Assembly: GCA_964187785.1 (NCBI GenBank) | Contig: OZ076409.1 | Location: 47,928,001-47,992,000 of the forward strand | DNA length: 64,000 bases | From: Amphiscolops sp. MND2022 | Lineage: Eukaryota | Direction: 5' to 3' | Shown here: one piece after another, positions 3,290 to 49,800 of the stretch | Layout: each line of letters opens with the position of its first letter | Position numbering within the stretch: the stretch's first letter is position 1 | Made by a program: the position numbers and the translations under genes | The notes under the pieces: model-generated | Databases searched by the model: none | What the model was told of the DNA's origin: nothing | Seen by the model: the letters and a program-made list of their open reading frames with translations, nothing else

Positions 3290-4076
3290 GACAAAAATTC
3301 AAAAATTTCCCAATATTCAACGTTTTTATGCAATTTTTGTCATTTTTTCGTTAAACATCGTGGATTAAAATGTTCAAAAACGTTCAACAAGGCACGAATT
3401 TGTTGTCCAATAGTATTCTATGAAGAGATAAATGCGGTTTTCAAAAGAAAAATCACCCCAAAAACGACAAAAATTCCAAAATTTTTTGATTTTTAACGTT
3501 TTTATGCAATTTTTATCAAATTTTTGATAGACTTCGTGGATTAGAATATTGAAAACGCTCAACATGGCAGCAATTCGTTGACCAGTAGGCTTTTCCGAAA
3601 AGAGAATTGCTGTTTTCTAAATGAAAAATATATCAAATTGGAACCGAAAATGACAAAACCCAAAATTTTCCGAATTTTTAAAGTTTTTTATGCAATTTTT
3701 GTCAAATTTTCAACAGACTTCGTAGATTGGAATGTTGAAAAGAGTCAATAAGGAACAAATTTGTTGTCCATTAGCCTTTGTTGAAGAGATAATTGCGAAT
3801 TTCAAGTTGAAAAATATCTCAAATTGGCACCGGAATAGACAAAAAACCCAAAATTTTCAAACTTTCAAAAATTTTATGCAATTTTTGTCAACTTTCGACA
3901 GACTTCGTAAATTGGAATGTTGAAAAGAGTCAACAAGGAACAAGTTTGCTGTCTAGTAGTCTTTTATGAAGAGATAATTGCAGTTTTCTGAATAAAACTT
4001 ATCTCAAATTGACAACCAAAATGAGAAAAAACCCAAAATTTTCAAATTTTCAATGTTTATTTGCAGTTTTTGTCAA
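3290..4076. repeat. Degenerate tandem repeat, ~180-bp period, 4-5 copies
   Basis: Core TTTTATGCAATTTTTGTC...GACTTCGT..ATT.GAATGTTGAAAA recurs near 3325, 3500, 3686, 3872 and 4056. Confidence 0.7.
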
Positions 4077-7128: not shown

Positions 7129-7734
7129 CTAATCAAAATCAGTGTCGTAAGCACGAGTGTCTGAGGATGTGAATCCATCCCTCTCACGATTACCAAGTGT
7201 CTTACTCTTCGAATTGTTTCTAGAGTCTGAATTACGCAGAACTTCAGAATATCCTTCCGGTCTCTCGGACGGAACGTTCCATCTCTCTTTGGTCATATGT
7301 CCGGAATCGGCCATAAGGGCATTTTGAATCTGGGGAAGAACTTGATTGCTAATTGCCTCACTTATAGCTCTTTGAATCTGCACACTGACGCTGTTCATCA
7401 TCTCATCCATCTCCCGAGATATACGGGAATTCAACTCACTCGACAATCTGTTGATCTCGGCGTTAGAACTACCTCTAGCTGAGTTCTGGCCTAGTTCGGC
7501 ATTTGGACTAGGTCCATTGTTCTCAGAGTTAGATAACCTATTTTCATCCTCATTTTCAAATTCGTCGCCAAAAGGACTACCGGGTCTTCTGGCCTGGTTA
7601 CTATTTAGACTATCACTTCTTTCGTTTCTATTGTAATGATTTCCTCCAAGCATTATGTCTAAATTCTCAATATCTGACAACATTTCTGCCTCTCTTGATT
7701 TTCTCGCTTTCTTTTGTTTCCTTGTGGTAAGCAT
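7129..7734 (-). other. Copy of the Gag N-terminal ~197 codons carried in the 3' LTR (truncated at the element end)
   Basis: Matches the start of ORF 20474-22195 except at residue 2; runs into flanking DNA and stops. Confidence 0.85.
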
Positions 7735-8988
7735 TGAAATTGAACCGGGTTGAATAATTCAATTATTAAAACCGGAAAACTGACAAACGTCGTTGTAACA
7801 AATCAATCTTTATCAAAGCAAGGTTATGGAAATTGTGTCTCCCTTTGCAGGAAAGTGACTATATATACCCCTGAAGGGTGACACTTGCATTCCACGGATT
7901 CTTTGATCAAGATAATATCATGTGGTTATGTCCTCAACAGGTCATGTGACAAATATCATTACTGCGTCGGGTATTAATACTTCAAAGCAACTATTTTAGG
8001 GTGATGTCCCGATTGGGAAAATTCCTAACATTTTACAATCACAACTATTCATTCATCAAAGGCGGCGTCAAAATATTTACTAGCGCATCAAATGAAATTT
8101 CCGTCCATCAAAGGAACTAGTACTCATCATGAATATAAATAACATTGCATACATTCCTTTCTGGCACGTGCCACCACGTGACCTATATTAGCTTTGCAGC
8201 AGTGTGAAGCACCTCATGTTATTAGGCCCAATACGGCCAATTGACATGTTAATGGTTATATGCGTTGATTAACCGATTAGCCCCAAATACATGTACTGCA
8301 TCACTTTCCAAAGGAACGTAACAATTCCAATGGCCGGGAATAGCCGGCTAATTAATGGGCAAGTACTAATGAAATATGGCCTTAAGGGCCTAGCAAAAGG
8401 TTGGGTATTAAAATGAAGCATCAGTTAAGAACAAAGATCTGGCTATTATGAAAACACAAACTCAACAAACATGATTTGTTACATGTCAAGTTATCACCTT
8501 ATTTCAATCTTGAACTAATGGGACGGAACCGGCCATTCGACCAGTGTACCTAAGGAGAATATTAAAGGCGCGGTAATTGGCCTTACTCGGCCATTAATTG
8601 AATAGCATCAATAAACGAGATTGTATACTGCGATATGATTGGTTGAGGTAACGTGCTCAAGTGACGCTGGCGGTACATTGCCGTACGTCACTTGAACTCG
8701 TTTCCTATACTGCCTTACAGTTGCTCGTTTCATTGTATTTCATATTGCTTTAAATTAGCGCCTTACAACTCTATCAGCTCGATTGAAATTTCCAATTGTT
8801 GGATTTAACAGACTAATTGTATATAAAATGAGCGTCATCAATGATCATGATACACAAAATAACAAAATGGCGTGAAAGTTTGATATCAATTGTAAGTTCT
8901 TAATAAATAGGTAAGGTTCCGGGTACGTATTCTTGACCAGCTGCCGAAGTAGTTACTGTCGTGCCGTCACAGGCGGCAGCCTGCGACA
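7143..8988 (-). repeat. 3' LTR of element A (1846 bp)
   Basis: Direct repeat of 21604-23449 at a constant offset of 14461; I noticed one substitution (MLTT vs MPTT codon). Confidence 0.97.
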
Positions 8989-9646
8989 CTGCGGGTGTTA
9001 TGAAAAGGAAGCAACCCGCATTAAGCCCATTCTCGTAGGCTTCTTTCCTTAACTTCGTGATGTGCTCGGGCTCATTCCTTGGGGTGGATCGTTCCATATA
9101 CCATCTGACTCTCTCACTCTTGATTGCATCTACAGAGCGGCCGCAAACCATACACCCAGTATATTGGGTCTCGCTGACATTTTGGTAGGGCACCGAGTTC
9201 TGCACGTGATAAGACACATGAAAATCACTTACTGCGGGCTGGACCAGAGGGGTATCCTGGCTTGGCCCCCTCTCGTGGATTGGTGGAGACATCGGTGATT
9301 CCAGCACTGGCAACAGCGTCTTGCAGAGCTCAATTCGTGATTTTTCCGCTCTCTTTGACGGGGCATAGCACCTTTCGTGATCAAAGTATTTTGTGTCTAA
9401 CTTGGGAGTCACATCTTGCCCCGGCTGCCTGGTGCTTGGTCCTGCGACCATTTCTTCCTCCATACTGCTAGTCGTCATGACACGTCCGGCAATTAGAATG
9501 GGGCTGGACACTACCTGCTTCTCCACCCTTCTGATCATTTCGTCCGTGTCCGTCGACCAGTCTGAGTCCAAATCAACTGAGGTTTCCTCATCGCTGCTTA
9601 TGTAAATGACTGAATCGCCTGATGAGTCTGAGTCCAGTTCAGCCAT
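8900..9646 (-). CDS. Accessory ORF of element A (248 aa; acidic N-terminus with SIM-like VIYISSDEE; CxxC); ends 89 nt inside the 3' LTR
   Basis: ATG-initiated intact ORF; positional counterpart in element C. Confidence 0.75.
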   Translation of the reverse strand: MAELDSDSSGDSVIYISSDEETSVDLDSDWSTDTDEMIRRVEKQVVSSPILIAGRVMTTSSMEEEMVAGPSTRQPGQDVTPKLDTKYFDHERCYAPSKRAEKSRIELCKTLLPVLESPMSPPIHERGPSQDTPLVQPAVSDFHVSYHVQNSVPYQNVSETQYTGCMVCGRSVDAIKSERVRWYMERSTPRNEPEHITKLRKEAYENGLNAGCFLFITPAVSQAAACDGTTVTTSAAGQEYVPGTLPIY

Positions 9647-10643
9647 CTCGAAGAGCTTTCCAGATTTTGCGTATTATCCATGATGAATTTTTTAGCTATT
9701 TTGAAGTTTATGAAGGCAACTAGCTGCAAGTGAGATTCAAAGTTGAATGAATTTATAAAACTCTCCTCGGGCCGACTCGGGCCGTTTTCCCGGGGTTTCG
9801 TTTCAGCGGCAGAATCTTTGGTTAATCGGTCTGATCCGTCGTAAACTTTCTTGAATGGAGTTTCTCAGCGGCGGTTCGCCCTTTGAATATCGGAACGCTA
9901 CCCCCCGAGCCTACCCTCTCAAGTAGGTAATCAGAGAGGTGTTAAGTTAACAACAACAAATAACTCCACTTCAAGAGGGTAATTAACATCAAGCTTGATA
10001 GCAATTAACGGCACGCATCAGATAAAGCCAACTAAAATGGCTTCAGCCAATCAAATTTGAGCTCCAATAAATTTGAAAAATGAATAATAAAGATGGCGAA
10101 AAATAATAATTTGAATAACTAAAATGGCGAAAATGATAAATCAAAATAATTCAAAATGGCGGAAATAACAATTTGAGTAACTAAAATAACGGAAGTCCCA
10201 ATTAGGACAACAAACAAAATGGAACGAGATGGTGAACCGAAATAGGGTAAACGGCCGTAACCGGCCAATAATTCCATAAGTTGTAAATAATGAAATAATC
10301 TTTGTACATTTCGCTGGCAGACTCCATGTACAGGATAAATATGTAAATAATCCCATAATATTAGTCTGGTAATAATCTTCAGCCACGAACTCCAACTCTT
10401 CAATTCCTTTACATTAAAGTTCTAAACCAATTCCATTTCTGATCATTCACATCTTCTTCTGCTATTTATATTTATCCAACCGTCATTCATCCTCGTGTGT
10501 CCACGACTACACAACTGCTTCCTCCAGCTCTTCTCTTCGGAGTATCCCAGATTTCCTTTTGTCCCTGTCGTAGTCAATTCAGCTCTACAAAGTCTTCTTC
10601 TCAGCACAAACAACTTCCGTTGGAACAACAACACTGAGGGAAC
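9647..10643. promoter_or_regulatory. Putative internal divergent promoter region of element A
   Basis: Non-coding gap between head-to-head genes; GGCC-N6-GGCC dyads at 9770 and 10253; clustered AA(A/G)ATGGCG motifs at about 10088-10163. Confidence 0.5.
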
Positions 10644-13600
10644 ATGTCTTCGAACACAGGTTGGTCTGATTTTCATATATTGAACTAGTTTAGCTTGATC
10701 AGGGCTAGACTTTGTTCATAATAAGCTTCCTGTTTCCACTAATAAGCGCGTGATAGCACATTTTGTTCAAATTCTCAAGTACTTCCGGAAGATTTCTAAT
10801 GCGGTAGAATGGATTCTTTTCGAGGAAGCATACCGCCAAACTTTATCTCTTTTCGTTTAGAGAATCAGACAACTGAAATTGCCAGCACATCAGCCAACCC
10901 TTCTACAACTGTCCCGACAGTTAGTCTTCCAACTGAGATGGAATCGCAAATCCCACATCCTGATACGTCCCAAACCACACCCAGCATCCATCCTGACGGG
11001 AAGAAGAATGAAAGTCGACCCGATGAAGCCACCTCCATGCACAGTACAGACAGTGATTTGGACGTGACGATTTATGCTGAGAATATGGTCCGACAACTAG
11101 AGAGTTCTCAGACATCAGACCGAACTCAACAAGAAGCCACACAGCTCTGTCCAAGTCAGGGTACGGACCCTGGCGTCCAGGAGGATTCGTCCGCCTCAAA
11201 CGTTGGGGAGACTAGGAGGGCAAGCACCCCTTTGGATACAGAAATGGGGGAGACTCCGACAGCTAATTTGTCAGCCCTGGAATCTGCTCTGCGAGTGGTC
11301 GAGAGTTCTGGGTCCCAACTGGCTGAACTTGTGGATGTTACCCAATCCGATGCCAACGTTGAGAGTGACTCCCTGGCACATCAGGACTGCGATGCCGCAT
11401 CATCCATTGGCGACGCTCCCCCACTCCCTGGAGGAGAATGCAAAATTCGGTACCTAACTGACCCTAGTGGGGATGAAGGAGCTACTGACCAATCTAGCGT
11501 GGTGGTTCCTGTAGCCTTGTATGGTTACACTCCCTTCGCGCATGCCTCTGAAACTGAAGGAGGAGATGAGACCGTTTCGGAACTTCTTGTCCCTGGTACT
11601 AGTGGACAGGCCCCTGGACAGGCTGAGTCCCACCGGGAACCACCCCACCTCTCGGGCAGAAGTCGGGCTATTCTCAAAGAATACTTTGACGAGTCCCCCT
11701 CTGTACGACTTCCAGTAGGTCATACCACTGTGTCATTTACTGAGCCACAGGTATACCATCTCCTTAGAGTCCTCACCGACGAGACTCTCAGCCGGTCCTT
11801 TTCGACCATGGAACAAATGGTCACAGATGCAGTCCGTGGAAAACCTACTGTCGCCCCATCGCGAACTGCTCATTTCTTTGCAGGGAGGCGGGCTCAGACA
11901 CCGGGTCCCAGTAGTATTGGAGACTCTAGTGGGAGTGACTCTGAAGGAGAAGTTACGTCAAGGGAGAGGGTTGCCGGATTGTCAAGTTCGGAAGACGCTG
12001 GAGATTCCTCGTATTATGGAGAAAGCGACAATGCTACTGAGCTGGATTTGATAGCGAAGTCCTTCAAGAAACCCGCTGAGACGCATGGTCCGCTAGTCCC
12101 GCAGTCGTCTGGCTTGGATTCTCAGGCTGATACTCCAGAATACAGCAGTCAAGATGCCACGCTCCTTGAAGTCAGGGACCAAGTCCTAGAACGTACCGCT
12201 GCTGGTTCGTCTAAGTCCAAGAAGAAGAGAGGCAACCGGAATCTCTCCAAACGAGGTGTCCCTATGCGAGAAGAGTTCTTCGCAAAGATCGGGTGGACCA
12301 GGTCCTTCATTTCAGGCCCTGCTGACCCACTCCATAATCCTCATATGGTTTGGTGTCATATCTGCAAGAAGAACTTCTCCATCAAGTCCAAGGGCCCGTA
12401 CGAGATATTGAGACACCACCGAACGGAGCGCCATCTGCGACGCGACCAACGCTGGCGCTATGAACATCTGCGGAGCACGGATCCGGTGACAGGGAAGGTG
12501 CAACACAGAGTCAGAGGCGGCAATGGGAAGTTGTTGTCCAAAGTTGAGCTGGCTAAGGAGCTGCCCAAATTTATCCACGTTGAGCTTGTGGACATAGGAG
12601 AACGCTTCCCCTTCTATGAGGACTTCGTCAAAGGATCGACCACTGCTTTGGTTACCCCGGAATCTCGCACCAAGACTCAGCTCTGCCTGGTTGGAGATTT
12701 CATCAAGAGCCAAGGAGATCTGACGGTTCTACGAAATCTGTGGTCCCGGATGGGGTCATTTACCAATCATCAGGCTACCTTCAACGACTTTGATTGGGGA
12801 GAAGAGAGATTGTCGGTAAGCATTTGTTCGTTTCATCCACTTAGGTTCCATTCCTTCTAAGGTTTCAAAAGGTTTTGTTTCTAGGCGATCTTCCAACACT
12901 TCTTCATCTGTTGCCTTGAGGACATAGCAGAGAATGTCAACACTCAGCAGTGCTTCGCTCTTGAGTTCGAGACCAAAGGAGTCTACAAGCACATGTCCAT
13001 CAAGTTCTGGAATGGCTCTGAGCTTTGTAGAGTCTTCATATGCCGCAGCTCACAGATCACCACAGACGTGACAGGAGAACTTGGGTCTTTGTCCCGACTC
13101 CTCTCTGCCATATCTACCAAACCTGGGATCGTGGCCTGTTCTGGATGTCACTCTGAATTACCCAGGGCCATCGACGAGTCAGAGTACTACAAACAGGGGG
13201 TCCAAAGCTGTCTGCGCTTCGAACACTTCAGCCTGCCCAACCTCCTGCACAAGTCGAGTTATAGTGTTTTCGGGAAGATAGACTTCTTCTCTGTCCTTCA
13301 AGCCTTGGTGGTTTCTCTGGGTGGGTCCCTCATGGAAGATTGGGTTCTCCGCAGCCCAGAACTTACCAAAGTAAGTAGTTTCTTTGCATTCCTCTCGTCG
13401 GGGTCATAGGCTTATATAGGGCTCTTTCATCTTATTCGTCTGGAATCCTCATGTGGCTTTATTGTACTTTCCAGGCTGTGACCAGTTGTAAGCTCGAAGT
13501 GACAGCCTTGCCTGTTCTTTGTCGAGAACTCATCGCCGAATGGAAGAACGTGGTGCGGTACCTGACCACACATGCGCCATTGCAAGAAGGTCAAGGATCC

Positions 13601-15033
13601 CGAGGAAGGGTTAGATCTGATCTTTTCTCCTTTAAGTCACATGGGAATATAGATCAATTTTCTTCATCTGATCGGTAGGGTCCAGTTTTACCACAGGGTT
13701 GATGATAGTCTTGTTCCAGGTGCAGAGCTTTGAGTGGTCGGTGATATGCGACGAATTCTTCGTCGTCAAACTGGAATTCTTCAGTAGGATCGTCAACGAT
13801 TGTAAGTATAATCTGTCGCAGCCTTAGTGAGGGTCTATCATCCTGAATTGGACAACAGTTTTGTTTTCAGTCGTCACCAGTTTCTCAGTCAATTTACAGT
13901 ATCGACGCGATTCATCCTTCTACTTGTGTGGAGAAGTAAGCCGATTTCTCAGCCTGCTCTGTTCCCGTATATACACCCCTGACACTGCACCCCTAGCAAA
14001 CGCTTGGTTTCTCCTCTTGCGCTTTCAGACGAGTGAGGCCACTTTCCTTTCAGGAGACGAGTACCTTGTCCGGCTCAAGCTAGCGAGTAAGGTTTCAGCC
14101 GCATGTAAAGCAAGAGCCGAAGGTCTTCATTTTGGCAAGAAGTCAGAGCGCGCTGCCATACAAGCTACTGCTGAGACGGTAAAGGCTGATTTCGTCAAGG
14201 ATAGCCAGCATTACATCCAGTTTGTAATCAATGGGGTCCATCAAAGAACTGGGCTCAGCACTAATCTGGTGAAGGGGCTTGCTGCCTTTGATCCCTTTAT
14301 TATGCTGAAGAGGCCAATGGATGTAGCCTTACGACATTTCGAGGTGTTGTACAGTAGCTTCGCAGTCCGATCTTGGGTGGACGATTCAAATGAGTCCCAG
14401 TGTCGGGATCAATATATCCAGCTATTGGATCACCTCCGAACCGCTTACGGACCTGATTTCGACATTACCAGTACGTCTGCCGATTTGATCGAGTTCCTGA
14501 TGGGGCTCGAGTTTCTCCATGAACGTTCCCATCTCTTATACCTCTTCAAATTGAGCTGTTTGTGTACGACCGTCACCAGTCCCAGCTATCCAGATGTCGT
14601 CTTTGGGGGAGTCACTACAGCTGGTGGACAGAGCCGGTTCACTGACCTTATCCTGCCTTGTCAGAGCTATATGGCTAATGTCATTGGTTCTGTTGTCCGG
14701 AGCAGCGAGGACTCCAATCTGGCCAAATTTTCGACTCTCTCCACATCGTTTGGTCGTTCTGCCTTCTCTTCCGAGTATGATTCTTGGGCCTATGTGGATA
14801 CTTTCGGTCGGTCGGGAATTTACAAATCCCTCTTGTCTACTTACCGCAAGGCTGAGTCTGCTCCAAAACGGGTTTCAGTCCAGGAAGATTTGGGAGAGAG
14901 TAGTACAGTGTGTGATCAGTCTGCTGTGAAGTTTCCCAGTAGTAAAAAGCGAAGGAGAGGTAGGAGCGGCTCACGATCGTCTGCTTCCTCTGTTGCTGGG
15001 AGCCCCAGTAAAGATTCCTCCACTAAGGCCTGA
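10644..15033 (+). CDS. Antisense spliced gene of element A: BED/C2H2 zinc-finger, hAT-transposase-like protein (~1278 aa). Predicted exons 10644-10659, 10861-12815, 12885-13370, 13475-13609, 13720-13801, 13871-15033
   Basis: All five introns are GT-AG and phase compatible (3837 nt, one frame); WCHICKKNFSIKSKGPYEILRHHRTERH finger; FALEFET, SVNLQ and LLYLFKLSCL segments resemble hAT core and dimerization regions; the first micro-exon is least certain. Confidence 0.85.
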
Positions 15034-15272
15034 TTATGTACATATGTATTTATGTACTTATGGACTGTAAACTTTGTTAATTTCTTTGTTGTATTTATTC
15101 TTTCGTTTGCCCTTGATTTCAGTTTCCTCATTGTTTGTATCTTTCACCCCCGTATTTATTTTGAGAGGGGTCCTTCGTTCGTCCCATTATTTATTCAAAG
15201 ATACCAGAGGGACTAAAAAAAACAGAAAAAGATAATAAGAAAGAACTCCCATTTTCGGGAAGAATTCAATCT

Positions 15273-18200
15273 TTAGTATCTGAAGTCTTCTGAGTAGTTT
15301 GGGTTAGGGTTAGGCCTGAGATTATATTTCCCTCCTCTAGGGCTCAGACTTTCATTTCTAGCATCGTTTTCGGATATTTCGGGCACGATAATATCATCCC
15401 CCCTATTTGGAGAATTTTGTGCATCGCTTTCATTCGATGGATTTCTTTCTGGAAAATTTTCATCGTCGTTTGTTCCATTTGCCATATCCGGCGAAGATTT
15501 TTCTTGGGTTTTTGGGGAGACGGCCGGATTCGGCCAATCAAATACTTCATTTCTAATAGCTTCAGTAGCTTCATTTCTTTTAGTGACGTCATCAATTAGT
15601 CGTTCATTCCGTCTATGCGACGCGCGGTCAGTGAGATTTGATTCGTCACTCGTGATTACATAATCAACTTCATTCTCGCTTGCGTCACTCGCATTCGTGT
15701 CCGCCGTACTCGGCTGTCCGTCATTCGTCAAGCTGGCCGGAATAGGCTCGCTGCCTCGTGTGTCTAGCTGTTCGCCAAAGTTTGTTTCCCACGTTATTAC
15801 ATACAAGTCGTCTTGCGGAATGATTATTTCGTCATCCGGCTGTAGACGCTGTTCTCGGAAATTGTCTTCAAGTGGCTGATTTGGAACAAACTTTTTGAGA
15901 CGAATTCGATGCAATATCTGCGTTTTATTTGTGTTAAGCCTGCGGACAATGTAATTCTCATTAGGTAAGGTCTTCTGGACTATAAACGGTCCAACCCGCC
16001 GATAATCCCTGAATGGAATTTTTGATCCTTGATGATCCGCTTTCGGCTGTAATACAAAACAGTAATCGCCCTCTTTGAGTGGGGCGGCTTTTGCTTTTCG
16101 GTCGTAATACTCCTTATATTTGATATATGACTGCATGATGTTCTGCTTTGTTTTGTCAATAAGGAGTTTGGTCCGGTTCTGGATTTCTTCGGCAAATTCA
16201 GTAGTCGGATGGATTGGCTCATTTGGATTCATTCCAAGTTTGTGATCCAATATGTTGTATGGGATTCTCCCATGGAACACTCTTGTGGGTTCGCATCCGA
16301 TACTGGCATGATAACTAGTGTTATGATTGAGAACTGCTAGAGGCAAATATTTATGCCATTGTCGGCGATATTCCCCACATGCCATTTTCAGGTTCGTTTT
16401 CAATGAGGCATGCGTTCGCTCTAATTTCCCGATAGTTTGCGGGTGTTTCGTCGTTGCACATTTTAGGGTAATGCCTAAAATCTGTGTAATTTCCGCAATG
16501 ATTGTGGAGGTAAAGGCAGTTCCTTTGTCCGTAATGAGCGTCGTCGGTAGGTAAGAATGTTTGGTCATAATATCAATGATTGCTTTAGCTACATTGATCG
16601 CTGATGCGTCCGTAAGAGGATAAGCAAACAAGTATCGAGAGAAGACATCAATTGCAGTTAAAACATTTTCGTATCCTCCACTTGGGGGAAGATTCGGCAA
16701 TAAGTCGATTTGCATGGCGTCTTCGGGTCCAAGGTCCCATTCCGGCAAGTTAAGTAGTTCAGGCGTGATTGTTGCGTTTGGGACTCGTTTGTCCTTTGCA
16801 CATTGTTCACACCCTTCTACCCACTTTTTGACATGTTTTGCCATGTTAGGGTAATAATACTTTTGTCTGATTTCCTGCAACATTTTTGAAATCCCGGGAT
16901 GTTTATGCGCTGTCCCATGAAGGGAGTGGAGCACTTCCCGAAGTAGGTGTTGCGGGAGCAAAATTTGATGGTATTTAACATTCCCTGTTTCATCAAAATA
17001 TTGCCTTGTCAGGATTTCGTCTTTGAGTACGATTCGCTCCAGATTATTTGCATAGTGTCTATATCGAGCATCTTGTTGCAGTATGTTTTCTGAATAGTCT
17101 TCATGAAGGAGTTTCGCCTTCAATTGTTGTAATACTGTATCTTTGGATTGCTCAATGATGATCTGGTTCATTTTCCTCAATCGGACTTGTACATCGGGGT
17201 GTTGCTTGATCAGATTTGTTGACAAAGTTTGTATAGTAACGGTGGGCTCATCAATTGCTGGGTTTTTCCTGATTGCTTCTTTCCTTGCCCAAGCCTGTTC
17301 CTCTGTCTCATCGTCGTCATTGGTGTAGAAGATTTGTTCTTCTTGCGACACCCCTGCGGATTGGACATTGATTTCAATTGGTAAAGTTTGTACATCCTCA
17401 CGGATTTTCATGACTAATTTATCCTTCGGGTCTGCCTCCAATCGGGACAAATAGTCGGCTGCTGTGTTCTGTGCCCCCGGGATGTGTGCTATGACAAAAT
17501 TGAACTGAATCACATAATCACATGCATTCCACAGGGCTGGGGGTATTATTTTCGTTTGGAAAAATCTCGTGACCGCTTTGTTGTCCGTAAGGATGATGAC
17601 CGGTTTCGGCGCACCCCAGAATATATGTCCGAATTCTTTGAATGCAAAGTAAATTGCAAGGAATTCTTTTGCATAAATTGACATCTTTATCTGGGCTGGG
17701 GTGAAAATTTTTGATCCGTATGCGACTGGTGCATACGATTTTCTGAGTGACGTGAATTTCTGGTTCGGGTCATCTTCGATTAAGACCGCGTATCCGGCTG
17801 CACCAAAACTTGCATCAGTCATTAGTGCTATTTGTTTGTTCGGAATGGGTTGTTGTAGTGCCAAGTCGCAACATTTGTCAAGTGCTTTGTTGATTTCCTC
17901 GAATTGTTGGACCAATTCTTTCGATACCAGGACCTTTTCGTCGCTCTTTAGCATCTTGTAGAATGGGGCAAGGCGTTCTGAAAGTCTTGGGACATAATTT
18001 CTGTAGTAATTCAAGAATCCCAAGTAGCGCTGCAAAGCCTTTTTCGACTTTGGGAACTTGGTCTTTTCCAGAAAGTTTTGCACGTTTTGTTTCTGGGGTT
18101 TGACGCCTTGCGGGGTAATAGTCCGTCCGAGAAAATCAATTTCTTTGGCACCAAAGTGACATTTATGCATTGTCAATTTAAGGCCTGCTTCCTGAATGCA

Positions 18201-20483
18201 TTTGAATGTAGCCCTCAGGTTAGCTATGAGGTGGTCAGCATCATTTGCTGCGATGCCTATATCGTCCACGTACTGGGCACACTGATCCGCTTTGATGACT
18301 TTGTCCAGGTATTCTCTCATAAAACTCGAGAATGCGGATAGTGACCGGCTAAGGCCTTGTGCCAGACGTCTGTAGGCGAATGTGCGACTGGCGAAATTGA
18401 AAGCCAACATTTCAATTGAACGTTGGTCGGCCATTGGTAGACAATGGTATGCCTGCGAACAGTCTAATTTACAGAATAGTTTTTTGCCTGCCAAGTGTTG
18501 GGCAGCATCAACCAAGGTGCTTACAGGGTGATTATTGTTTATATAATCATCCGAGATGAGGTTGTTGATTTTTCGCAGGTCAACCAAAAGTCGTAGCTTT
18601 CCATTTGGTTTCTTTTGGGCGAATATTGGGCTTGCATACTTTGAGAACGGGAGAGTGGTGATGATGCCGTATTTGTGTAACATGGCTAATTCAACTAGGA
18701 TGTCCTCCTTCAAATTGATAGGAGCTGGAAGACTTTGACTATAGGCTGGGGAATCGTCCTTAGGTGTCAGTTTCACTTTGAAGTCCTCGTTCATGCCTAT
18801 ATCGAATCGGTGTCGTGCAAAGATGTCATGAAATTCCACTAACAATTCCTCTATTTTCTCCTTCTCTTCAGGAGTAAGGGTGGAATCTTTCCAGTCAAAG
18901 TTTTCTAAGAATTTTGCACGTGATTCTTCGTCCTTTGTGGGGTCAAGAGTCTCTAGGTCTTGTAGGGCCTGTAATTCTTGAAGGATTCGTTTTTGTATGG
19001 GTGTGTGTTCCTCAGGATTTCCAGGGTTTTCTGGAGTTGGGAACCAGTAATTTTCAGTGTTTTGTGGATTTCTGTTTGTCTTGATCAGGCTACTGACGTA
19101 ATGGGCTGCTTGTTCTTGGTCGTTTTGCAACAAATGCCAGGTTGATGCCGGGTCTACCGGTTTGACGTATTTCATTTGCTCTGGCGTCATGACAGAGAAA
19201 TTGGCAATGTGTAATCCCTTTTTGAGTTTATAGGGGTGGTCTGTGAAATTATTCACAGGTATCAATATGTTGCCATCATTCAGAGTGACCAAGGCTGGGC
19301 AAAAGGTGATGTCGCCTTCTTCATGTAGAAGGTCGCTCGGTTGTAAAATCCCAGTGACAGCGTTTTCGGGATACAGTAGGGAATTGGTCCTAATTAGGAC
19401 TCTGTCGTTTGGCGGAATGGTTATTTCAGTGGGGTTGAGAATTGGTTCTAGTACATTTGAATATTTATGATCAGCTGTTTTGAGCTGCATTGAAAAGAAT
19501 GGGAAGTTCAGGATTCCTTGCCTCATGTCCAGAACTGTATGATTTCGCTGGAGGAACATTAGTCCTATGATTGGTCCTGTCAGATGTTCCATTACTATGA
19601 AGATTTCATGGAACTCAATGTCACCAACTTCGAATTTGAGCTCTATGGTACTTTTAAGAGTTTCCAGTTGCCCATTAGCGACCATGATTTGGAAGTTCGG
19701 AGGCGGACCCTCTCGGATAACTGATTGTGGTGAAAGGAGTCTAATTTTCCGGAGGTCCATTTCGGGGATTGCACTGGATAAGGCACCAGTGTCGATAAGT
19801 CCATCAATGGTCAATTCCCCAAAGTCCATGGGGAAATATAGCATGCGTTTCTTGCATTTCAAGTTTATGTTGGTTGACAGGGGTATACAGTCTGGTTCAC
19901 CTCTGGTAATGAGGATGTTTTGGAACTGACTTTCGTCAAGTAGTGACTGTGGTATTGTTTCTTCTGGTTTGTCTGAGGTCTCGGTCCCTAAGGGGTTTGG
20001 GAACACCGGATGGCTTGTACCATCGTTCATCTGCCATGTTTCAATCAATGCTCTGGTTTTCTTGTTGTGGGTGATTGGTGGGTTGTCATGGATTGATCTA
20101 TTATAGAGTTCGATATCATCGATAACGTATTGGAATTGTAACAAATCCTGGTTGTAAAGTTCGGTATCCCAATAGGGATCTCGTCCATAGTCAGGATCGA
20201 TGTAGGTAGGGTTGTAGTTGTCTATCAAGGGAATGGGCCTGAATCGGCTATTGAAAGCGGATGTGTAATCAGGGTCCCATACGGGAATTGGTTTTTGGAA
20301 CAAGTGGGTATTATTGTAAGTAATAATGGTAGCTTTTTCCATTTGTTGCTGCCAGACAACAGAAGGATAGCCCATCAATTGTTGATTGTATTGGTGGAAA
20401 ATTTGCGTTGGAGGGTCCGATCTGATGTATTGTCGGACAGATATTAGTTGGTTGTATTGGAGTCGTGGCGAAGTTAGTTTTTT
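15273..20483 (-). CDS. pol: Pol polyprotein of element A (protease, RT, RNase H, integrase), reached by -1 frameshift
   Basis: LIDTGALSS protease; YVDD RT; TDAS RNase H; HHCC and DDE integrase; the frame is open from the slippery site to 15273. Confidence 0.97.
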   Translation of the reverse strand, partial: KKLTSPRLQYNQLISVRQYIRSDPPTQIFHQYNQQLMGYPSVVWQQQMEKATIITYNNTHLFQKPIPVWDPDYTSAFNSRFRPIPLIDNYNPTYIDPDYGRDPYWDTELYNQDLLQFQYVIDDIELYNRSIHDNPPITHNKKTRALIETWQMNDGTSHPVFPNPLGTETSDKPEETIPQSLLDESQFQNILITRGEPDCIPLSTNINLKCKKRMLYFPMDFGELTIDGLIDTGALSSAIPEMDLRKIRLLSPQSVIREGPPPNFQIMVANGQLETLKSTIELKFEVGDIEFHEIFIVMEHLTGPIIGLMFLQRNHTVLDMRQGILNFPFFSMQLKTADHKYSNVLEPILNPTEITIPPNDRVLIRTNSLLYPENAVTGILQPSDLLHEEGDITFCPALVTLNDGNILIPVNNFTDHPYKLKKGLHIANFSVMTPEQMKYVKPVDPASTWHLLQNDQEQAAHYVSSLIKTNRNPQNTENYWFPTPENPGNPEEHTPIQKRILQELQALQDLETLDPTKDEESRAKFLENFDWKDSTLTPEEKEKIEELLVEFHDIFARHRFDIGMNEDFKVKLTPKDDSPAYSQSLPAPINLKEDILVELAMLHKYGIITTLPFSKYASPIFAQKKPNGKLRLLVDLRKINNLISDDYINNNHPVSTLVDAAQHLAGKKLFCKLDCSQAYHCLPMADQRSIEMLAFNFASRTFAYRRLAQGLSRSLSAFSSFMREYLDKVIKADQCAQYVDDIGIAANDADHLIANLRATFKCIQEAGLKLTMHKCHFGAKEIDFLGRTITPQGVKPQKQNVQNFLEKTKFPKSKKALQRYLGFLNYYRNYVPRLSERLAPFYKMLKSDEKVLVSKELVQQFEEINKALDKCCDLALQQPIPNKQIALMTDASFGAAGYAVLIEDDPNQKFTSLRKSYAPVAYGSKIFTPAQIKMSIYAKEFLAIYFAFKEFGHIFWGAPKPVIILTDNKAVTRFFQTKIIPPALWNACDYVIQFNFVIAHIPGAQNTAADYLSRLEADPKDKLVMKIREDVQTLPIEINVQSAGVSQEEQIFYTNDDDETEEQAWARKEAIRKNPAIDEPTVTIQTLSTNLIKQHPDVQVRLRKMNQIIIEQSKDTVLQQLKAKLLHEDYSENILQQDARYRHYANNLERIVLKDEILTRQYFDETGNVKYHQILLPQHLLREVLHSLHGTAHKHPGISKMLQEIRQKYYYPNMAKHVKKWVEGCEQCAKDKRVPNATITPELLNLPEWDLGPEDAMQIDLLPNLPPSGGYENVLTAIDVFSRYLFAYPLTDASAINVAKAIIDIMTKHSYLPTTLITDKGTAFTSTIIAEITQILGITLKCATTKHPQTIGKLERTHASLKTNLKMACGEYRRQWHKYLPLAVLNHNTSYHASIGCEPTRVFHGRIPYNILDHKLGMNPNEPIHPTTEFAEEIQNRTKLLIDKTKQNIMQSYIKYKEYYDRKAKAAPLKEGDYCFVLQPKADHQGSKIPFRDYRRVGPFIVQKTLPNENYIVRRLNTNKTQILHRIRLKKFVPNQPLEDNFREQRLQPDDEIIIPQDDLYVITWETNFGEQLDTRGSEPIPASLTNDGQPSTADTNASDASENEVDYVITSDESNLTDRASHRRNERLIDDVTKRNEATEAIRNEVFDWPNPAVSPKTQEKSSPDMANGTNDDENFPERNPSNESDAQNSPNRGDDIIVPEISENDARNESLSPRGGKYNLRPNPNPNYSEDFRY

Positions 20484-22195
20484 GACTCATCATTGGAAGA
20501 TGAGGTTTGTGAGTTGGAATTTGTTGATTTGTTTTGTGGTTTCTGCGCCTTTGGATTGGGTTTACCGTCATTGGCGTCATCTGGTCTGGTGCGTTTGGGT
20601 TTGAGATGTGCACCAGCACCTTGCCAACATCTTTCTTCTGGGTGGTTCTTTTTACCACAGGTGCCACACTCCGGGTACGTCTTTTTCTGAGTCTGTTTGC
20701 CTTGTTGGGCATCTTTTTCTTTTTTCTTCTTCAATTTCTCGCAATCTTTGACCATATGGCCCTTTTCTTTGCAATAATTGCACGTTATATCACTCATCTG
20801 TACGTTGGAAGGAACAGTTTTTGTCTTACCAATCGAAGATGTCATTGATGCTATGGGCAGGTCGTCAGACTCTTCAAGTGCATTCAGTTCCAGTTCTCGT
20901 TCTAGATGAGCGACAATTTCATCGTAAGAGCCATTCTCTAGTCTAGCCATGTTGACTGATCTTTTGAGCTTTGGTGGCAGTTTTGCGTATAGGAGACTGT
21001 CGATCATCTTTTGGGCATTGTCTCCAAAGGCTTTTTCTGCTCCTTGGTTAAGCTCTTCAAGGAAGTCTGGCAATTTGGTCGTGTTAGGGTCAAAGACTAG
21101 GCGATGCCATTTGTGTTTTGCCGTTGCCTGAGATTCAGGTTTGACGTACTTTCGTCTGAAAATGACAAGTACATCTTCAAGAGTTTGTCTATTGGCGTTG
21201 CTGATGTTTCTGAATGTTTGGAGTGCATTCTTTCGCAGCAAGGAATGGAAGTGATTGATTTTCATTTGTTCGGTCATCTCAGGCTGCATCTTGATCATCG
21301 TATGGAATAAATCCTCAAACAGCTCGAACTTCTCACTTTTTCCGTCGAATGTCATTGTGTTGGAGTTGACTGGGCGGATAGTGAGTTGTTGGGCCGTTGG
21401 ACGGTTCTGCATACTAGTCAAAACATCTGCTAGCCTGTTGATGGGGTCTTGTTCTGATGCCAGAGCGGGTCGTTCTTGTGCTGGGATCGTCGTGTCGAGC
21501 AGCGGAAGGTCATCACAGGATCTGTTGAGATGAGTAGTGGATGGCATTCGTCCTGTGAGAAACTCAGGAACTTCAATTGGAGATTCGTTTTCTCCTGTCA
21601 CCATGTCGTAAGCACGAGTGTCTGAGGATGTGAATCCATCCCTCTCACGATTACCAAGTGTCTTACTCTTCGAATTGTTTCTAGAGTCTGAATTACGCAG
21701 AACTTCAGAATATCCTTCCGGTCTCTCGGACGGAACGTTCCATCTCTCTTTGGTCATATGTCCGGAATCGGCCATAAGGGCATTTTGAATCTGGGGAAGA
21801 ACTTGATTGCTAATTGCCTCACTTATAGCTCTTTGAATCTGCACACTGACGCTGTTCATCATCTCATCCATCTCCCGAGATATACGGGAATTCAACTCAC
21901 TCGACAATCTGTTGATCTCGGCGTTAGAACTACCTCTAGCTGAGTTCTGGCCTAGTTCGGCATTTGGACTAGGTCCATTGTTCTCAGAGTTAGATAACCT
22001 ATTTTCATCCTCATTTTCAAATTCGTCGCCAAAAGGACTACCGGGTCTTCTGGCCTGGTTACTATTTAGACTATCACTTCTTTCGTTTCTATTGTAATGA
22101 TTTCCTCCAAGCATTATGTCTAAATTCTCAATATCTGACAACATTTCTGCCTCTCTTGATTTTCTCGCTTTCTTTTGTTTCCTTGTGGTAGGCAT
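20474..22195 (-). CDS. gag: Gag of element A (573 aa), initiating inside the 5' LTR
   Basis: Capsid-like region; two CCHC knuckles CNYCKEKGHMVKDC and CGTCGKKNHPEERC. Confidence 0.93.
   Translation of the reverse strand: MPTTRKQKKARKSREAEMLSDIENLDIMLGGNHYNRNERSDSLNSNQARRPGSPFGDEFENEDENRLSNSENNGPSPNAELGQNSARGSSNAEINRLSSELNSRISREMDEMMNSVSVQIQRAISEAISNQVLPQIQNALMADSGHMTKERWNVPSERPEGYSEVLRNSDSRNNSKSKTLGNRERDGFTSSDTRAYDMVTGENESPIEVPEFLTGRMPSTTHLNRSCDDLPLLDTTIPAQERPALASEQDPINRLADVLTSMQNRPTAQQLTIRPVNSNTMTFDGKSEKFELFEDLFHTMIKMQPEMTEQMKINHFHSLLRKNALQTFRNISNANRQTLEDVLVIFRRKYVKPESQATAKHKWHRLVFDPNTTKLPDFLEELNQGAEKAFGDNAQKMIDSLLYAKLPPKLKRSVNMARLENGSYDEIVAHLERELELNALEESDDLPIASMTSSIGKTKTVPSNVQMSDITCNYCKEKGHMVKDCEKLKKKKEKDAQQGKQTQKKTYPECGTCGKKNHPEERCWQGAGAHLKPKRTRPDDANDGKPNPKAQKPQNKSTNSNSQTSSSNDESKN
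20477..20483 (-). promoter_or_regulatory. -1 ribosomal frameshift slippery heptamer A AAA AAC at the gag stop
   Basis: TCA AAA AAC TAA; the -1 frame (KLTSPRLQY...) is continuous with pol; same heptamer in element C. Confidence 0.85.
21590..21603 (-). promoter_or_regulatory. Primer-binding site of element A (TGGTGACAGGAG...), embedded in gag coding sequence
   Basis: TGG directly follows the LTR CA end; tRNA identity uncertain (resembles Leu-type TGGTGTCAGGAG). Confidence 0.7.
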
Positions 22196-23449
22196 TGAAA
22201 TTGAACCGGGTTGAATAATTCAATTATTAAAACCGGAAAACTGACAAACGTCGTTGTAACAAATCAATCTTTATCAAAGCAAGGTTATGGAAATTGTGTC
22301 TCCCTTTGCAGGAAAGTGACTATATATACCCCTGAAGGGTGACACTTGCATTCCACGGATTCTTTGATCAAGATAATATCATGTGGTTATGTCCTCAACA
22401 GGTCATGTGACAAATATCATTACTGCGTCGGGTATTAATACTTCAAAGCAACTATTTTAGGGTGATGTCCCGATTGGGAAAATTCCTAACATTTTACAAT
22501 CACAACTATTCATTCATCAAAGGCGGCGTCAAAATATTTACTAGCGCATCAAATGAAATTTCCGTCCATCAAAGGAACTAGTACTCATCATGAATATAAA
22601 TAACATTGCATACATTCCTTTCTGGCACGTGCCACCACGTGACCTATATTAGCTTTGCAGCAGTGTGAAGCACCTCATGTTATTAGGCCCAATACGGCCA
22701 ATTGACATGTTAATGGTTATATGCGTTGATTAACCGATTAGCCCCAAATACATGTACTGCATCACTTTCCAAAGGAACGTAACAATTCCAATGGCCGGGA
22801 ATAGCCGGCTAATTAATGGGCAAGTACTAATGAAATATGGCCTTAAGGGCCTAGCAAAAGGTTGGGTATTAAAATGAAGCATCAGTTAAGAACAAAGATC
22901 TGGCTATTATGAAAACACAAACTCAACAAACATGATTTGTTACATGTCAAGTTATCACCTTATTTCAATCTTGAACTAATGGGACGGAACCGGCCATTCG
23001 ACCAGTGTACCTAAGGAGAATATTAAAGGCGCGGTAATTGGCCTTACTCGGCCATTAATTGAATAGCATCAATAAACGAGATTGTATACTGCGATATGAT
23101 TGGTTGAGGTAACGTGCTCAAGTGACGCTGGCGGTACATTGCCGTACGTCACTTGAACTCGTTTCCTATACTGCCTTACAGTTGCTCGTTTCATTGTATT
23201 TCATATTGCTTTAAATTAGCGCCTTACAACTCTATCAGCTCGATTGAAATTTCCAATTGTTGGATTTAACAGACTAATTGTATATAAAATGAGCGTCATC
23301 AATGATCATGATACACAAAATAACAAAATGGCGTGAAAGTTTGATATCAATTGTAAGTTCTTAATAAATAGGTAAGGTTCCGGGTACGTATTCTTGACCA
23401 GCTGCCGAAGTAGTTACTGTCGTGCCGTCACAGGCGGCAGCCTGCGACA
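21604..23449 (-). repeat. 5' LTR of element A (1846 bp)
   Basis: Adjacent to the PBS; TATA-like GGGTATATATAG at about 22319-22330, ~125 nt upstream of the gag ATG. Confidence 0.97.
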
Positions 23450-26693: not shown

Positions 26694-26694
26694 T

Positions 26695-46800: not shown

Positions 46801-49800
46801 TCAGATGTTGACGTTATGTCGACATCGTATTTTATCGGCTGTAAATTGAAATAATTTACTTGGCCAAATTTGTCAACGTTATGCTGACGTCATTTTCGTT
46901 AGTTTAGCTAACTTTTGATTTTGTCACCGTTTTGATGACGTCATTTTAGGATATAGGATTAATTTCTTAACCCTGATAACCTTTTTGTCGACGTTATGCC
47001 GACGTCAATTTCGTTGGTAATTAGCCAACTTTTATTTTTGTCACCGTTATGATGACTTCGATTTGGTCGTTGTTTTTGTTTCTCCTCCTTTTCAGATTGC
47101 TGTTGAAAGAAAAAAAATGATGTCGTCTCGTCGAGTTGAATCTGGTTTCCAGAGTGGCCACGAGACGCAGTTTGTCTTCTCCGACGGAGACATTCAGGAA
47201 AGTGATGTTGATCCCCGCAGTCGACCAGCCCTTGGTAAATCTTTATCTCGCTTTCCATTAAGTTTTTGCGAAATATACTTTCAACAGTTAGGCATTTCCT
47301 GTTTTGTATTTTCACAGCTTAGATTTTCTGACGCGTCAAATTTTGGGAAATGTTGTTTCAGGGTCTGTTCTACCTGGTTCTCTTGCTGGGGATCCTGTGG
47401 TTCTTCCCGGACTTTCCTTGCCCACTGGTCTCGCTGCTGTCGGACCTGTAAATTCCTCTGTTCCTGACGTTCCTGTTGGAGGTGCTGTGCCTGCTATTGG
47501 CGAAGTTTCTGTCCCTTGTCAGGAGGATCTTGACATTCCATTGTCGAAGTTGATTCCTCTGTCCGCTCGTCCTCATGTAGGTGAGGGTGATCCCCCCACT
47601 GAGAAAGAGAAAACCACTACTGGGCAAACTCCTAAAACTGTTGGCTCGGAGGTGCATAAAACGCCTTCACCGCGGTTTTCGTCTTTCCTCACTGAATGTC
47701 GAGAGAATCCTGAAGAGCAGGCGGAGGGTCCACTGGGTGAGTAACTTTTTCCTTGCTTTTGTTTTTCTTTTTTTTTGTTCGAGACTTGTGAGATTTGTGT
47801 CTTGGTATTACTGGGTTTGTCATGTTTGTGGTCATAAATATTGGGTGACTTGTGTATAGGTTCAGCGTTAGTTCGTGGTGAGGAACCCTGTACACAGAGC
47901 TCATCGCGGTGTCTGCGTACCCGAAGTCATGATAAGGTTCCTGTTGTAAAGGCAGCTTCACGAGTTCTGCGATTTGAGCTGGATAGTAGTGACAGTGATG
48001 CTACTGACACACCAGCTTTGCCGTGTACTCCCCGACAGGCACTGAGGCTGGGCGAAATATTGGCCTCTGAATTGGAACATCGGACGATGGAACCTCTTGT
48101 CACCCGTTAGTGTACTTTGTGCTTGTAGCGTAGTGTAGTGGGGGGGGGGGGTTTGATAATATCCGTTTGGTAGTTGCATGTTGGTTAGCGTTATATTATA
48201 GGTGTGTGCACTTTCCACGGTTCCAGGAACTTGTGGCGCGGGTGGAGACGAGTTTGGAAGGAGTTCCGGGTCCACAGCGTCAGCGCAAACGGGTATATAG
48301 TCCCCGTAATCGTCTTCGCCGCGACATGGTTGGTGACAACCCCATTTATCAGCTATTTGTCAGTGGTTCAAGTACAGGGTCAGACAAGTTGTTCTTTTGC
48401 AAAATTTGTCATCGGGATGTGTCGATGGAGTCACGTGGGGCATCAGAGTTCGCCCGCCATTTCTTTGGTAAGCGTCATTGGCAATTGGACATGACGTATC
48501 GTGTGCAACATGACCTCCCTGTCTTCAATCGTCTTATGGACCCTCTGGAGTTAAATGAGACTCAAGTTGCTGATTTCATGGGTCGTCCAAGCAAGGGGTT
48601 GGCTGAAGGTTTCAGTTTCTCCGAAGATCTTCTTCCTGCCTGTACCCGCGTGGACTCATCCGTTCCGCTGATGACTATGATCAATAGTGTCTTGGAACTG
48701 TTTCGTTGTGGGGGGAGCTATACCCTGTTGAGGAAGTTGTGGGGAAGTTTCCGAGCTACTCTGGGTCCTGAAGTACCCTTGTTCAGCCTGAAATGGGACC
48801 GAGCCGAGACTTTGGTAAGATGTTTTATGCATTTTATAACTTTCGTGTATACTTGTGTTCATGGTTCTGTGGTTGTGGTAGGGGCATTTATTCCTATTGC
48901 TTTGAAGATCTTGTGATGTTTTAGTCGTTGATTTGTCAAGCCTTGTTTCCTCGAGTGTTGGGGTTACTTGTGTCTCGGATCTCATCTTTCCGGGAGTATA
49001 GTGTCTTCTTCCTTGAGAATGCTGCAACCCAGGCGTGTTTTGTCCATACTTGGGATGATGATGCCTTGTTCTCTGTGTGTATCCGTGTGGAGTCTGCTGG
49101 TCAACGTGTACCTACTGCCGAGTTGGCCGGGCTGTCCCGTGTTATTGACAGTGTGCCTTCTTGTCAACTGCCTCTGTCGTGTCAAGGCGGTAGTGCATCG
49201 TTGTTGCGTGTTTTGAACGACAATCGCATCGATGGGCGACAGTTTCTGTATTGTCGTGAATTCACTGATGATGATTTCCTGCGCGGGTATCGCCAGGCGG
49301 AGCGAGAGATCTTCGGCAAGCTTGATGTCACTTCCATGATCGATTTATTGGTGTTGCGCTTGCGAGGTGCTCTTCAGGAGTCATGGATGGAAGAAACACC
49401 CACTCTTCGTCGCTGTGTACTTGCTGGTCGCGTGACATTTGCACATTTGTGTCTAGTGGCAACAGAGCTTGTGGCCCACTGGAAGATTGTGCGAGAGTTT
49501 GTGCGATTTACGGGTCCTGGACAGGCTAGATGTGAAGTCGATAAGGTAAGTTCTTCTTGACTTGTTATGAGAGTAAGAAGTGAGAACATGATCTTCATGG
49601 TTTGTCTTGTTGGTTCGGATAGTAGGGGGTGTTTCATATTTTGTATTGACGTACATTTAGGATTTTGTTTATTTGTAGATGCGAGGATTGGACTGGCTGG
49701 TGAGCAGTGACACTACAAGCGTTTTGCGGCTCGGCCTTCTTTGTCACGTACTTGATCTCTGTGAGTTTCACCTTATCTGCGTTTTGTCAAACATTTAATG

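What the first reader, a model, noticed from the sequence alone, without database searches (positions are those of the whole stretch)
8225..10266. GGCC-N6-GGCC dyads recur in element A's LTR and internal spacer
Seen: perfect GGCC-N6-GGCC at 8225-8238, 8579-8592, 9770-9783 and 10253-10266; one-mismatch versions at 8332-8345 and 8521-8534; an N5 variant at 8378-8390. The LTR copies repeat in the 5' LTR. The spacers differ, so these are not simple tandem duplications. The half-sites are 10 bp apart, about one helical turn, in AT-rich DNA. Inference: sites for a dimeric protein, plausibly the element's BED-finger protein, since hAT BED fingers recognise short repeated subterminal motifs.
Basis: partly seen in the sequence, partly recalled or inferred. 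Interest (0 to 1): 0.7.

Follow-up and report, generated by a model that had tools for sequence, protein, structure and literature searches.

The report
Retrotransposon-wide palindromic motif with captured DNA-binder
A young LTR retrotransposon is marked along its length, even inside its polymerase gene, by a short spaced palindrome found almost nowhere else nearby, and it carries an extra gene that looks like a disarmed DNA-transposon enzyme with a zinc finger, which may let the element recognise and regulate its own copies.

Summary
All seven listed sites are at the stated coordinates. The motif is better written as a quasi-palindrome, GCCG-N5-GGC(C). It has 12 sites in the non-redundant 14.5 kb of Ty3/gypsy element A (LTR, spacer, gag, pol) and 0 in 42.3 kb of the rest of the window. 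It is the top dyad of a blind scan (0 of 1840 null sequences reach it). Six sites lie in pol, against 0.61 expected after synonymous shuffling. They are not tandem copies. A carries an antisense, intron-containing gene with a BED/CGGBP-like finger, an RNase H-fold exon lacking a recognisable catalytic set, and hAT-like C-terminal features; each match is weak alone. The gene is family-wide, and related element C has a divergent homologue and a different palindrome in the same positions. Best reading (0.5): this dead hAT-derived protein binds the dyads to regulate its own family, like plant VANC. Binding is not shown. Against it: C's motif overlaps CRE sites, element B has an LTR palindrome without such a gene, RNA hairpins are not excluded, no other copy's DNA was obtained, and no CpG-methylation signature was seen.

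The parts
7143..8988 (-). 3' LTR of element A (1846 bp, TG...CA)
   Evidence: 99.946% identical to 21604-23449; 5-bp target duplication ATCAG on both sides of the element
21604..23449 (-). 5' LTR of element A; holds copies of the LTR sites and the first ~197 codons of gag
7299..7312 (.). one-mismatch dyad in the gag-coding part of the LTR (copy at 21760)
7488..7501 (.). one-mismatch dyad in the gag-coding part of the LTR (copy at 21949)
8225..8238 (.). perfect dyad, non-coding LTR, about 360 bp upstream of a TATA-like box on the element strand (copy at 22686)
   Evidence: U3 assignment is inferred
8332..8345 (.). one-mismatch dyad, weak fit to the refined motif
   Evidence: score 8.3
8521..8534 (.). 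one-mismatch dyad
8579..8592 (.). perfect dyad (copy at 23040)
8962..8975 (.). GCCG-N5-GGC core site near the LTR end, also inside ORF3
9770..9783 (.). perfect dyad, about 12 bp upstream of a TATA-like box (9757, - strand) facing ORF3
10253..10266 (.). perfect dyad in the divergent spacer between ORF3 and the antisense gene
15480..15748 (.). cluster of four core sites (15481, 15523, 15703, 15736) inside the C-terminal tail of pol; 15522 is a perfect dyad
16354..16367 (.). core site in the integrase region of pol
18343..18356 (.). one-mismatch dyad in the RT region
20236..20249 (.). one-mismatch dyad near the 5' end of pol
8900..9682 (-). ORF3, sense ORF of about 260 aa with a CxxC, reading into the 3' LTR; unknown function
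   Evidence: no Pfam hit; cluster of 72 members
10809..12815 (+). antisense gene exon 1: long low-complexity N-terminus, CxxC-HxxxxH zinc finger (BED/CGGBP-like) and helical region; ends at a GT donor
   Evidence: cluster of 77 members
12885..13370 (+). antisense gene exon 2: RNase H-type fold between AG and GT splice signals
13475..15033 (+). further exons of the antisense gene; the last exon has hAT C-terminal look-alikes; inner splice sites not settled
15273..20486 (-). pol (protease, RT, RNase H, integrase order of Ty3/gypsy), open frame of 1737 aa
20474..22195 (-). gag, 573 aa, starting inside the 5' LTR
46807..47056 (.). element C comparison: five copies of a different 17-bp quasi-palindrome in the equivalent spacer, partly tandem-derived and overlapping CRE-like TGACGTCA
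48134..51006 (+). element C comparison: homologous antisense zinc-finger gene
   Evidence: 27% identity over 153 aa, E 5e-11; exon 2 E 9e-12; last exon E 0.001

Best explanation
The dyads are binding sites in double-stranded DNA for the element's own accessory protein. Element A carries, antisense to gag-pol and with introns, a gene derived from a hAT transposase that kept its BED-type finger and lost recognisable catalytic residues. Two fingers would read the two halves of the quasi-palindrome GCCG-N4-(C)GGC, as Hermes BED domains read a quasi-palindrome. Sites upstream of the LTR and ORF3 TATA-like boxes and in the weakly constrained ends of gag and pol would load the protein along every family copy. 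The likeliest effect is trans-activation or protection from chromatin silencing, working like plant VANC but probably not by DNA demethylation. Shown: motif, its confinement to A, its DNA-level coding in pol, the gene and its family-wide presence. Weakly supported: hAT origin and BED identity. Inferred: catalytic death, binding, stoichiometry and regulatory sign.
For: Core GCCG-N5-GGC: 12 sites in A, 0 in 42.3 kb elsewhere. Pol: 6 sites against a synonymous-shuffle mean of 0.61, 0 of 5000 shuffles. Inner positions do not pair (3 of 13 Watson-Crick) yet 12 of 13 keep the G or the C (p 1.3e-4), which fits base reading rather than pairing. The finger region's nearest Atlas clusters are zf-BED and CGGBP1-like (0.92). 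The exon-2 model aligns contiguously to Hermes 153-264 (Z 5.5, rmsd 3.0, 101 residues; TMq 0.44). The last exon resembles FAM200/GTF2IRD2 and Dimer_Tnp_hAT clusters (0.91). CGGBP-type hAT domains mostly bind CGG/CGC motifs and differ between proteins (PMC8097297). Within the finger, positions 59 and 58 rank first and third in variability among 110 relatives; counting back from the first zinc histidine they match Hermes base-reading S66 and T65 (PMC10368747). Element C has a divergent finger, no A motif, and another palindrome in its spacer and LTR. In 120 gag relatives, the residues at the motif's final C (83, 146) vary only among C-first codons; 8 of 114 variable columns do so, and 2 of 4 predicted columns passed (p about 0.03).
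Against: No binding data. Every hAT/BED match is below significance: no Pfam hit for any exon, no Foldseek hit at E<=0.001, and Hermes ties with Hsp70, integrase and Argonaute folds; the Atlas recognition score for the last exon (1839) is below its 2300 mark. C's motif is partly tandem-derived and overlaps TGACGTCA, a host CRE-like site (recalled consensus). Element B has an AGGC-N6-GCCT palindrome in its LTR array and no homologue of the gene, so LTR palindromes need not mean an own binder. Eight of 17 sites fold as hairpins (P>=0.5) on the element strand, and outer pairs co-vary with G-U on the opposite strand (11 of 13, permutation p 0.022). Gag alone is not significant in the synonymous test (p 0.18), and gag columns 80 and 143 failed the first-base prediction. 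No CpG depletion or CpG hypermutability (16 of 289 versus 52 of 979 in B's LTR pair).
Confidence: 0.5

Rival explanations
1. The dyads are sites for a host transcription or chromatin factor that family A has recruited; the hAT-like gene does something else.
For: Host-type motifs are also repeated in these elements: YY1-like AAAATGGCG in A's spacer and LTR, and TGACGTCA five times in C (factor names recalled). B has its own LTR palindrome without the gene. Half-sites are often followed by A[AT]T, giving CCAAT-like words.
Against: The motif is absent from 42.3 kb of neighbouring DNA including two other LTR elements, although only about 1.5 would be expected there (my estimate). Six sites sit in pol, 6 kb or more from the 5' LTR for most, which is unusual for a plain enhancer (inference).
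Confidence: 0.23
2. The sites are small GC-rich hairpins in the element's RNA or single-stranded cDNA, read by Gag/NC, RT or a host protein for packaging or strand transfer.
For: The arms are complementary by construction; 8 of 17 sites pair with P>=0.5 on the element strand; outer pair co-variation p 0.022 on the opposite strand.
Against: Arm sequence and a six-base gap are fixed with no compensatory stem variants: other 4-bp stems are far less enriched. The inner pair is mostly a mismatch. Six of 17 sites have P<=0.02 on the element strand, including perfect site 9770. The G-U signal is on the strand opposite the genomic RNA. No Rfam match.
Confidence: 0.12
3. Another element-encoded protein (ORF3 product, integrase or Gag) binds the sites, or the hAT-derived protein binds them to tether cDNA for integration rather than to regulate transcription.
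For: ORF3 is family-wide (72 members), has a CxxC, and a perfect site lies just upstream of its TATA-like box. One core site is within 30 bp of the LTR end.
Against: ORF3 has no Pfam hit and no detectable similarity to C's equivalent ORF. Integrases act at LTR tips, while most sites are internal (recalled knowledge).
Confidence: 0.1
4. The sites are inert relics of subterminal repeats of a hAT transposon nested in the element, or chance.
For: Clusters flank the hAT-like gene on both sides (8225-10266 and 15480-15748).
Against: The right cluster is inside the open pol frame and others are in gag and both LTRs. The longest exact inverted match across the flanks is 10 bp, and none of 9 loose TIR/TSD candidates has an exact 8-bp duplication. 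The gene is at the same place in the distant element C. Chance is excluded.
Confidence: 0.05

Closest known systems
VANC proteins and their motifs in Arabidopsis VANDAL (Mutator-like) transposons (PMC5735166; abstract and passages read)
   Same: A transposon-encoded accessory protein paired with a short, family-specific motif present many times in the element.
   Different: VANDAL is a DNA transposon. Its motifs are non-palindromic, same-orientation, mainly non-coding and multiplied by tandem repeats, and VANC removes DNA methylation. Here the host element is a retrotransposon, the motif is a dispersed palindrome that enters coding sequence, the protein is hAT-like, binding is unshown and no CpG signature was seen.
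Hermes/hAT BED domains and subterminal repeats (PMC10368747; abstract and two results sections read)
   Same: Two BED domains bind a quasi-palindrome cooperatively; base reading is by the loop and helix before the zinc histidine; AT-rich flanks matter.
   Different: Hermes is an active transposase binding near its own TIRs. Here there are no TIRs, the finger is CCHH-type, and the catalytic set is not recognisable.
CGGBP1-like and ZBED domesticated hAT proteins (PMC8097297, main text read; PMC11575156, abstract only)
   Same: hAT-derived BED proteins, often missed by Pfam, intron-containing, with diverse CGG/CGC-rich motifs.
   Different: Those are host genes and mostly short. This one is carried in many copies by a retrotransposon and keeps the RNase H and C-terminal parts.
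Antisense additional ORFs of plant Ty3/gypsy Retand, Grande, RIRE2 (PMC7264820, main text read; PMC11963269, abstract and Discussion)
   Same: Family-wide antisense gene between pol and the 3' LTR with its own promoter; nuclear and DNA-binding regulatory roles proposed; family-specific repeats nearby.
   Different: Those encode TRP28 (Pfam Transposase_28) or unknown domains, with origin stated as unknown and no target motif reported in the text I read. Here a hAT origin and a candidate motif are in view.

Membership tests
Ty3/gypsy LTR retrotransposon | Two LTRs with TG...CA ends and a short target duplication | tested here: met
   1846-bp LTRs, one difference, TSD ATCAG
Ty3/gypsy LTR retrotransposon | gag, then protease-RT-RNase H-integrase | tested here: met
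   Pfam order in pol
Ty3/gypsy LTR retrotransposon | PBS after the 5' LTR and PPT before the 3' LTR | tested here: inconclusive
   TGG-starting PBS-like word is present, tRNA not matched; no purine tract next to the 3' LTR
zf-BED domain | Significant profile match to PF02892 or a BED structure | tested here: inconclusive
   1 of 35 members at E 0.71; 2ct5 and 8eb5 only at E 4.6 and 6.8; Atlas top cluster 83% zf-BED at 0.92
zf-BED domain | CxxC...HxxxxH/C zinc ligands with upstream aromatic residues and a strand-strand-helix fold | tested here: met
   C44, C47, H64 (109 of 110) and H70 conserved; model strands 41-44 and 49-52, helix 58-65, mean pLDDT 87.8
hAT transposase-derived protein | Domain order BED, helical region, RNase H fold, helical insertion, C-terminal hAT region | tested here: inconclusive
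   Order fits across exons but each match is below significance; the spliced protein was not folded
active hAT transposase / hAT transposon | DDE triad and CxxH motif | tested here: not met
   End of strand 1 is E-F-E and end of strand 4 is C-S-G in 34-38 of 39 rows; no CxxH in the common form. The mapping to Hermes catalytic positions is recalled and inferred from secondary structure; the third acidic residue was not located.
active hAT transposase / hAT transposon | Terminal inverted repeats with an 8-bp target duplication around the gene | tested here: not met
   longest exact inverted match 10 bp; 0 of 9 loose candidates with an exact duplication
VANC-type anti-silencing system | Family-specific motif at high density in the element | tested here: met
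   Within this window only; genome-wide specificity untested
VANC-type anti-silencing system | Element-encoded protein binds the motif | not testable with these tools
   Needs EMSA, PBM or ChIP
VANC-type anti-silencing system | Motifs multiplied by tandem repeats | tested here: not met
   A's sites have unrelated flanks; C's are partly tandem
VANC-type anti-silencing system | Loss of DNA methylation in trans | not testable with these tools
   Indirectly disfavoured: CpG o/e 0.93-1.16 in LTRs and no CpG hypermutability

The most novel reading that the evidence does not exclude
A large LTR-retrotransposon radiation has captured a hAT transposase, disarmed it, and uses it as a family-specific self-recognition factor. 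Its finger residues and a palindromic target written into LTRs, spacer and gag/pol codons would diverge together between subfamilies: a retroelement counterpart of the VANC anti-silencing system built from a class II enzyme.
Probability: 0.33. Interest if true: 0.87.

Novelty: new variant of a known kind. Interest (0 to 1): 0.68.

Why it matters
Antisense accessory genes of LTR retrotransposons are described as of unknown origin and function (PMC7264820). In the papers I read, sequence-specific protein-motif anti-silencing is described only for plant DNA transposons. Here one element supplies both a candidate origin (a hAT transposase) and a candidate target (a defined 12-14 bp motif), so the question becomes directly testable. 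The 256 relatives of the finger region with variable recognition residues would give a natural series for protein-DNA co-evolution. My searches listed no paper on a hAT/BED gene carried by an LTR retrotransposon; the library lacks most subscription journals and Repbase, so absence is not established.

Tried and rejected
No whole genome is held for this window, so genome-wide enrichment and copy-to-copy conservation could not be tested. Scans for other copies found none: viral contigs, metagenomes (one search gave one 68% GC locus sharing only the 22-bp pattern) and prokaryote genomes (an 18-residue match with no DNA similarity). No sequencing run was listed. Pol relatives were not retrieved: 12 of 12 start variants were not in the collection, so the pol sites could not be compared across copies. 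Homodimer prediction of the finger region gave no verdict (score 0.00, alignment not used). Fold searches for the finger region gave no clear match, nor did PDB sequence-profile searches. The masking control was spoiled by the mask itself; I used the held-out region instead. Contig-length pairing of fingers with gag sites was uninformative. Rejected: tandem duplication as the origin of A's sites, a nested hAT with TIRs, chance, and the N5 variant as a family member. No Rfam match. No earlier scan notes. Two searches used a recalled guess at the host lineage and listed nothing on this family; the host is not identified. PMC13524379 had no occurrence of the terms asked; PMC5408684 and PMC13547354 were seen as passages only. 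No supplementary files were read; those of PMC8097297 hold the motifs that could be compared with this one.

Full report
Setting. The window holds three LTR elements. Element A (7143-23449, minus strand) has 1846-bp LTRs that differ at one base, a 5-bp target duplication ATCAG, and open gag and pol frames in Ty3/gypsy order. Between pol and the 3' LTR lie a sense ORF3 (8900-9682) and an antisense gene (10809-15033) with GT-AG introns at 12816-12884 and 13371-13474. A 1.1-kb spacer separates their starts. No genome is held, and no other copy's DNA could be fetched. All DNA statistics therefore come from this window.

Observation. Against 1840 third-order Markov nulls, none reaches the first and 24 reach the second. 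GCC-N6-GGC occurs 13 times in A, while gaps 3-5 and 7-9 give 0-2. The feature is real and spacing-specific.

What the motif is. It is a quasi-palindrome. At 12 of the 13 GCC-N6-GGC sites the inner left base is G or the inner right base is C, but both hold at only 3. The core GCCG-N5-GGC has 12 sites in A: 4 in the LTR, 2 in the spacer, 4 in the pol tail, 2 elsewhere in pol, none in the 4.2-kb antisense gene. It has 0 sites in 42.3 kb of non-redundant other sequence; the pattern was derived from A, and only about 1.5 sites would be expected elsewhere by my estimate. The six pol sites survive a synonymous-codon shuffle (mean 0.61, 0 of 5000), so they are written at the DNA level; gag alone is not significant. 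Flanks are unrelated, so tandem duplication did not make them. In 120 gag relatives, the two in-frame sites remain codon-compatible in 109 and 64. The residues covering the motif's last C vary only among H, Q, R and P, which share a first-position C; 8 of 114 variable columns are compatible with one first base, and 2 of the 4 predicted columns passed. This is modest, indirect support for conservation beyond this copy.

The candidate binder. The antisense gene is family-wide: 77 near-identical members of the exon-1 ORF, 72 of ORF3 and 281 of gag, and 256 longer relatives of the finger region at E<=0.001. All listed hits are unnamed ENA records, which may include redundant assemblies. Pfam does not name any exon. 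Three weak lines agree on a hAT origin in the right order. The finger region's nearest Atlas clusters are zf-BED and CGGBP1-like. Exon 2 folds as an RNase H-type domain whose only listed match covering the model from residue 1 to 108 at Z 5 or more is Hermes 153-264 (Z 5.5, tied with unrelated RNase H-like folds). The last exon's look-alikes include FAM200/GTF2IRD2 and Dimer_Tnp_hAT clusters, below the Atlas recognition mark. The two Atlas calls use one method. Where a DDE enzyme has aspartates, the family has E-F-E and C-S-G (mapping recalled and inferred), and no TIR/TSD brackets the gene. I read it as a disarmed transposase fixed in the retroelement. Among 110 of 120 relatives that kept the finger pattern, positions 59 and 58 are first and third most variable in residues 14-81, while neighbours G57, E60, I61, R63 and H64 are nearly fixed. 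Counting from the zinc histidine, these match Hermes S66 and T65, which contact bases (PMC10368747). Position 40 is second, so variability is not unique to the recognition loop.

Internal comparison. Element C has the same layout and a homologous antisense gene. It lacks A's motif and has another 17-bp quasi-palindrome in its spacer and LTR. This fits protein-motif divergence, but C's copies are partly tandem and overlap TGACGTCA, a CRE-like word (factor recalled). Element B has no homologue of the gene, yet its LTR array contains AGGC-N6-GCCT.

Mechanism. Most likely (0.5) the element's own protein binds the dyads in duplex DNA, two fingers per site, and regulates family copies. The placement upstream of two TATA-like boxes and throughout the body suggests activation or protection from silencing; this step is inference. 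A VANC-like demethylation is disfavoured, because LTR CpG is not depleted and CpG transitions are not raised in B's or C's LTR pairs. Rivals are a host factor (0.23), RNA or single-stranded DNA hairpins (0.12), another element protein or a tethering role (0.10), and relic or chance (0.05). The hairpin rival has real support: 8 of 17 sites pair on the element strand and outer pairs co-vary on the other strand (p 0.022). It fits poorly with the fixed arm sequence and the unpaired inner position.

Comparison and novelty. The system would work like VANC-VANDAL (PMC5735166) but is not a member: different element class, different protein, no tandem origin. The parts are each known: antisense ORFs in plant Ty3/gypsy (PMC7264820, PMC11963269), domesticated hAT binders with CGG motifs (PMC8097297), and BED pairs on quasi-palindromes (PMC10368747). 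My searches listed no report of their combination in an LTR retrotransposon. Verdict: observation confirmed and extended; interpretation plausible but unproven; new variant of a known kind; interest 0.68.

Noticed in passing
window 21604-22195 and 7143-7734; element C 43660-44202: Gag starts deep inside the LTR: about 197 codons of A's gag lie in the LTR and the frame reads through the PBS-like word. C's LTR also contains a gag-like start.
   Followed up: partly
window 8989-9015: No purine-rich tract precedes A's 3' LTR; ORF3 reads across the junction. C's junction also looks non-purine over the few bases seen.
   Followed up: no
window 10034-10187 and 8864: Repeated AA[AG]ATGGC[GT] words, YY1-like by recall, in a 31-bp tandem array of A's spacer and in the LTR.
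   Followed up: partly
window 58226-58322 versus 45232-45276: C's 5' LTR has a 52-bp tandem duplication containing C's palindromic motif; the 3' LTR has one copy.
   Followed up: partly
window 23624-39188: Element B starts about 175 bp from A, has two extra sense ORFs (33389-35514) without Pfam hits that read as env-like (my impression), and a 29/73-bp LTR array.
   Followed up: partly
window 41641-42003: A 363-bp near-perfect palindrome (96.7%) with no spacer.
   Followed up: no
window 3273-4076: AT-rich satellite of 176-186 bp period.
   Followed up: no
window 834-1538: A 234-codon open frame with a Cys-rich stretch and no Pfam hit.
   Followed up: no
window 59473, 59506, 60323 and 61140-62150: A few GCC-N6-GGC or one-mismatch dyads, and a 56-bp inverted repeat with 14-bp subrepeats, at the right end of the window.
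   Followed up: no
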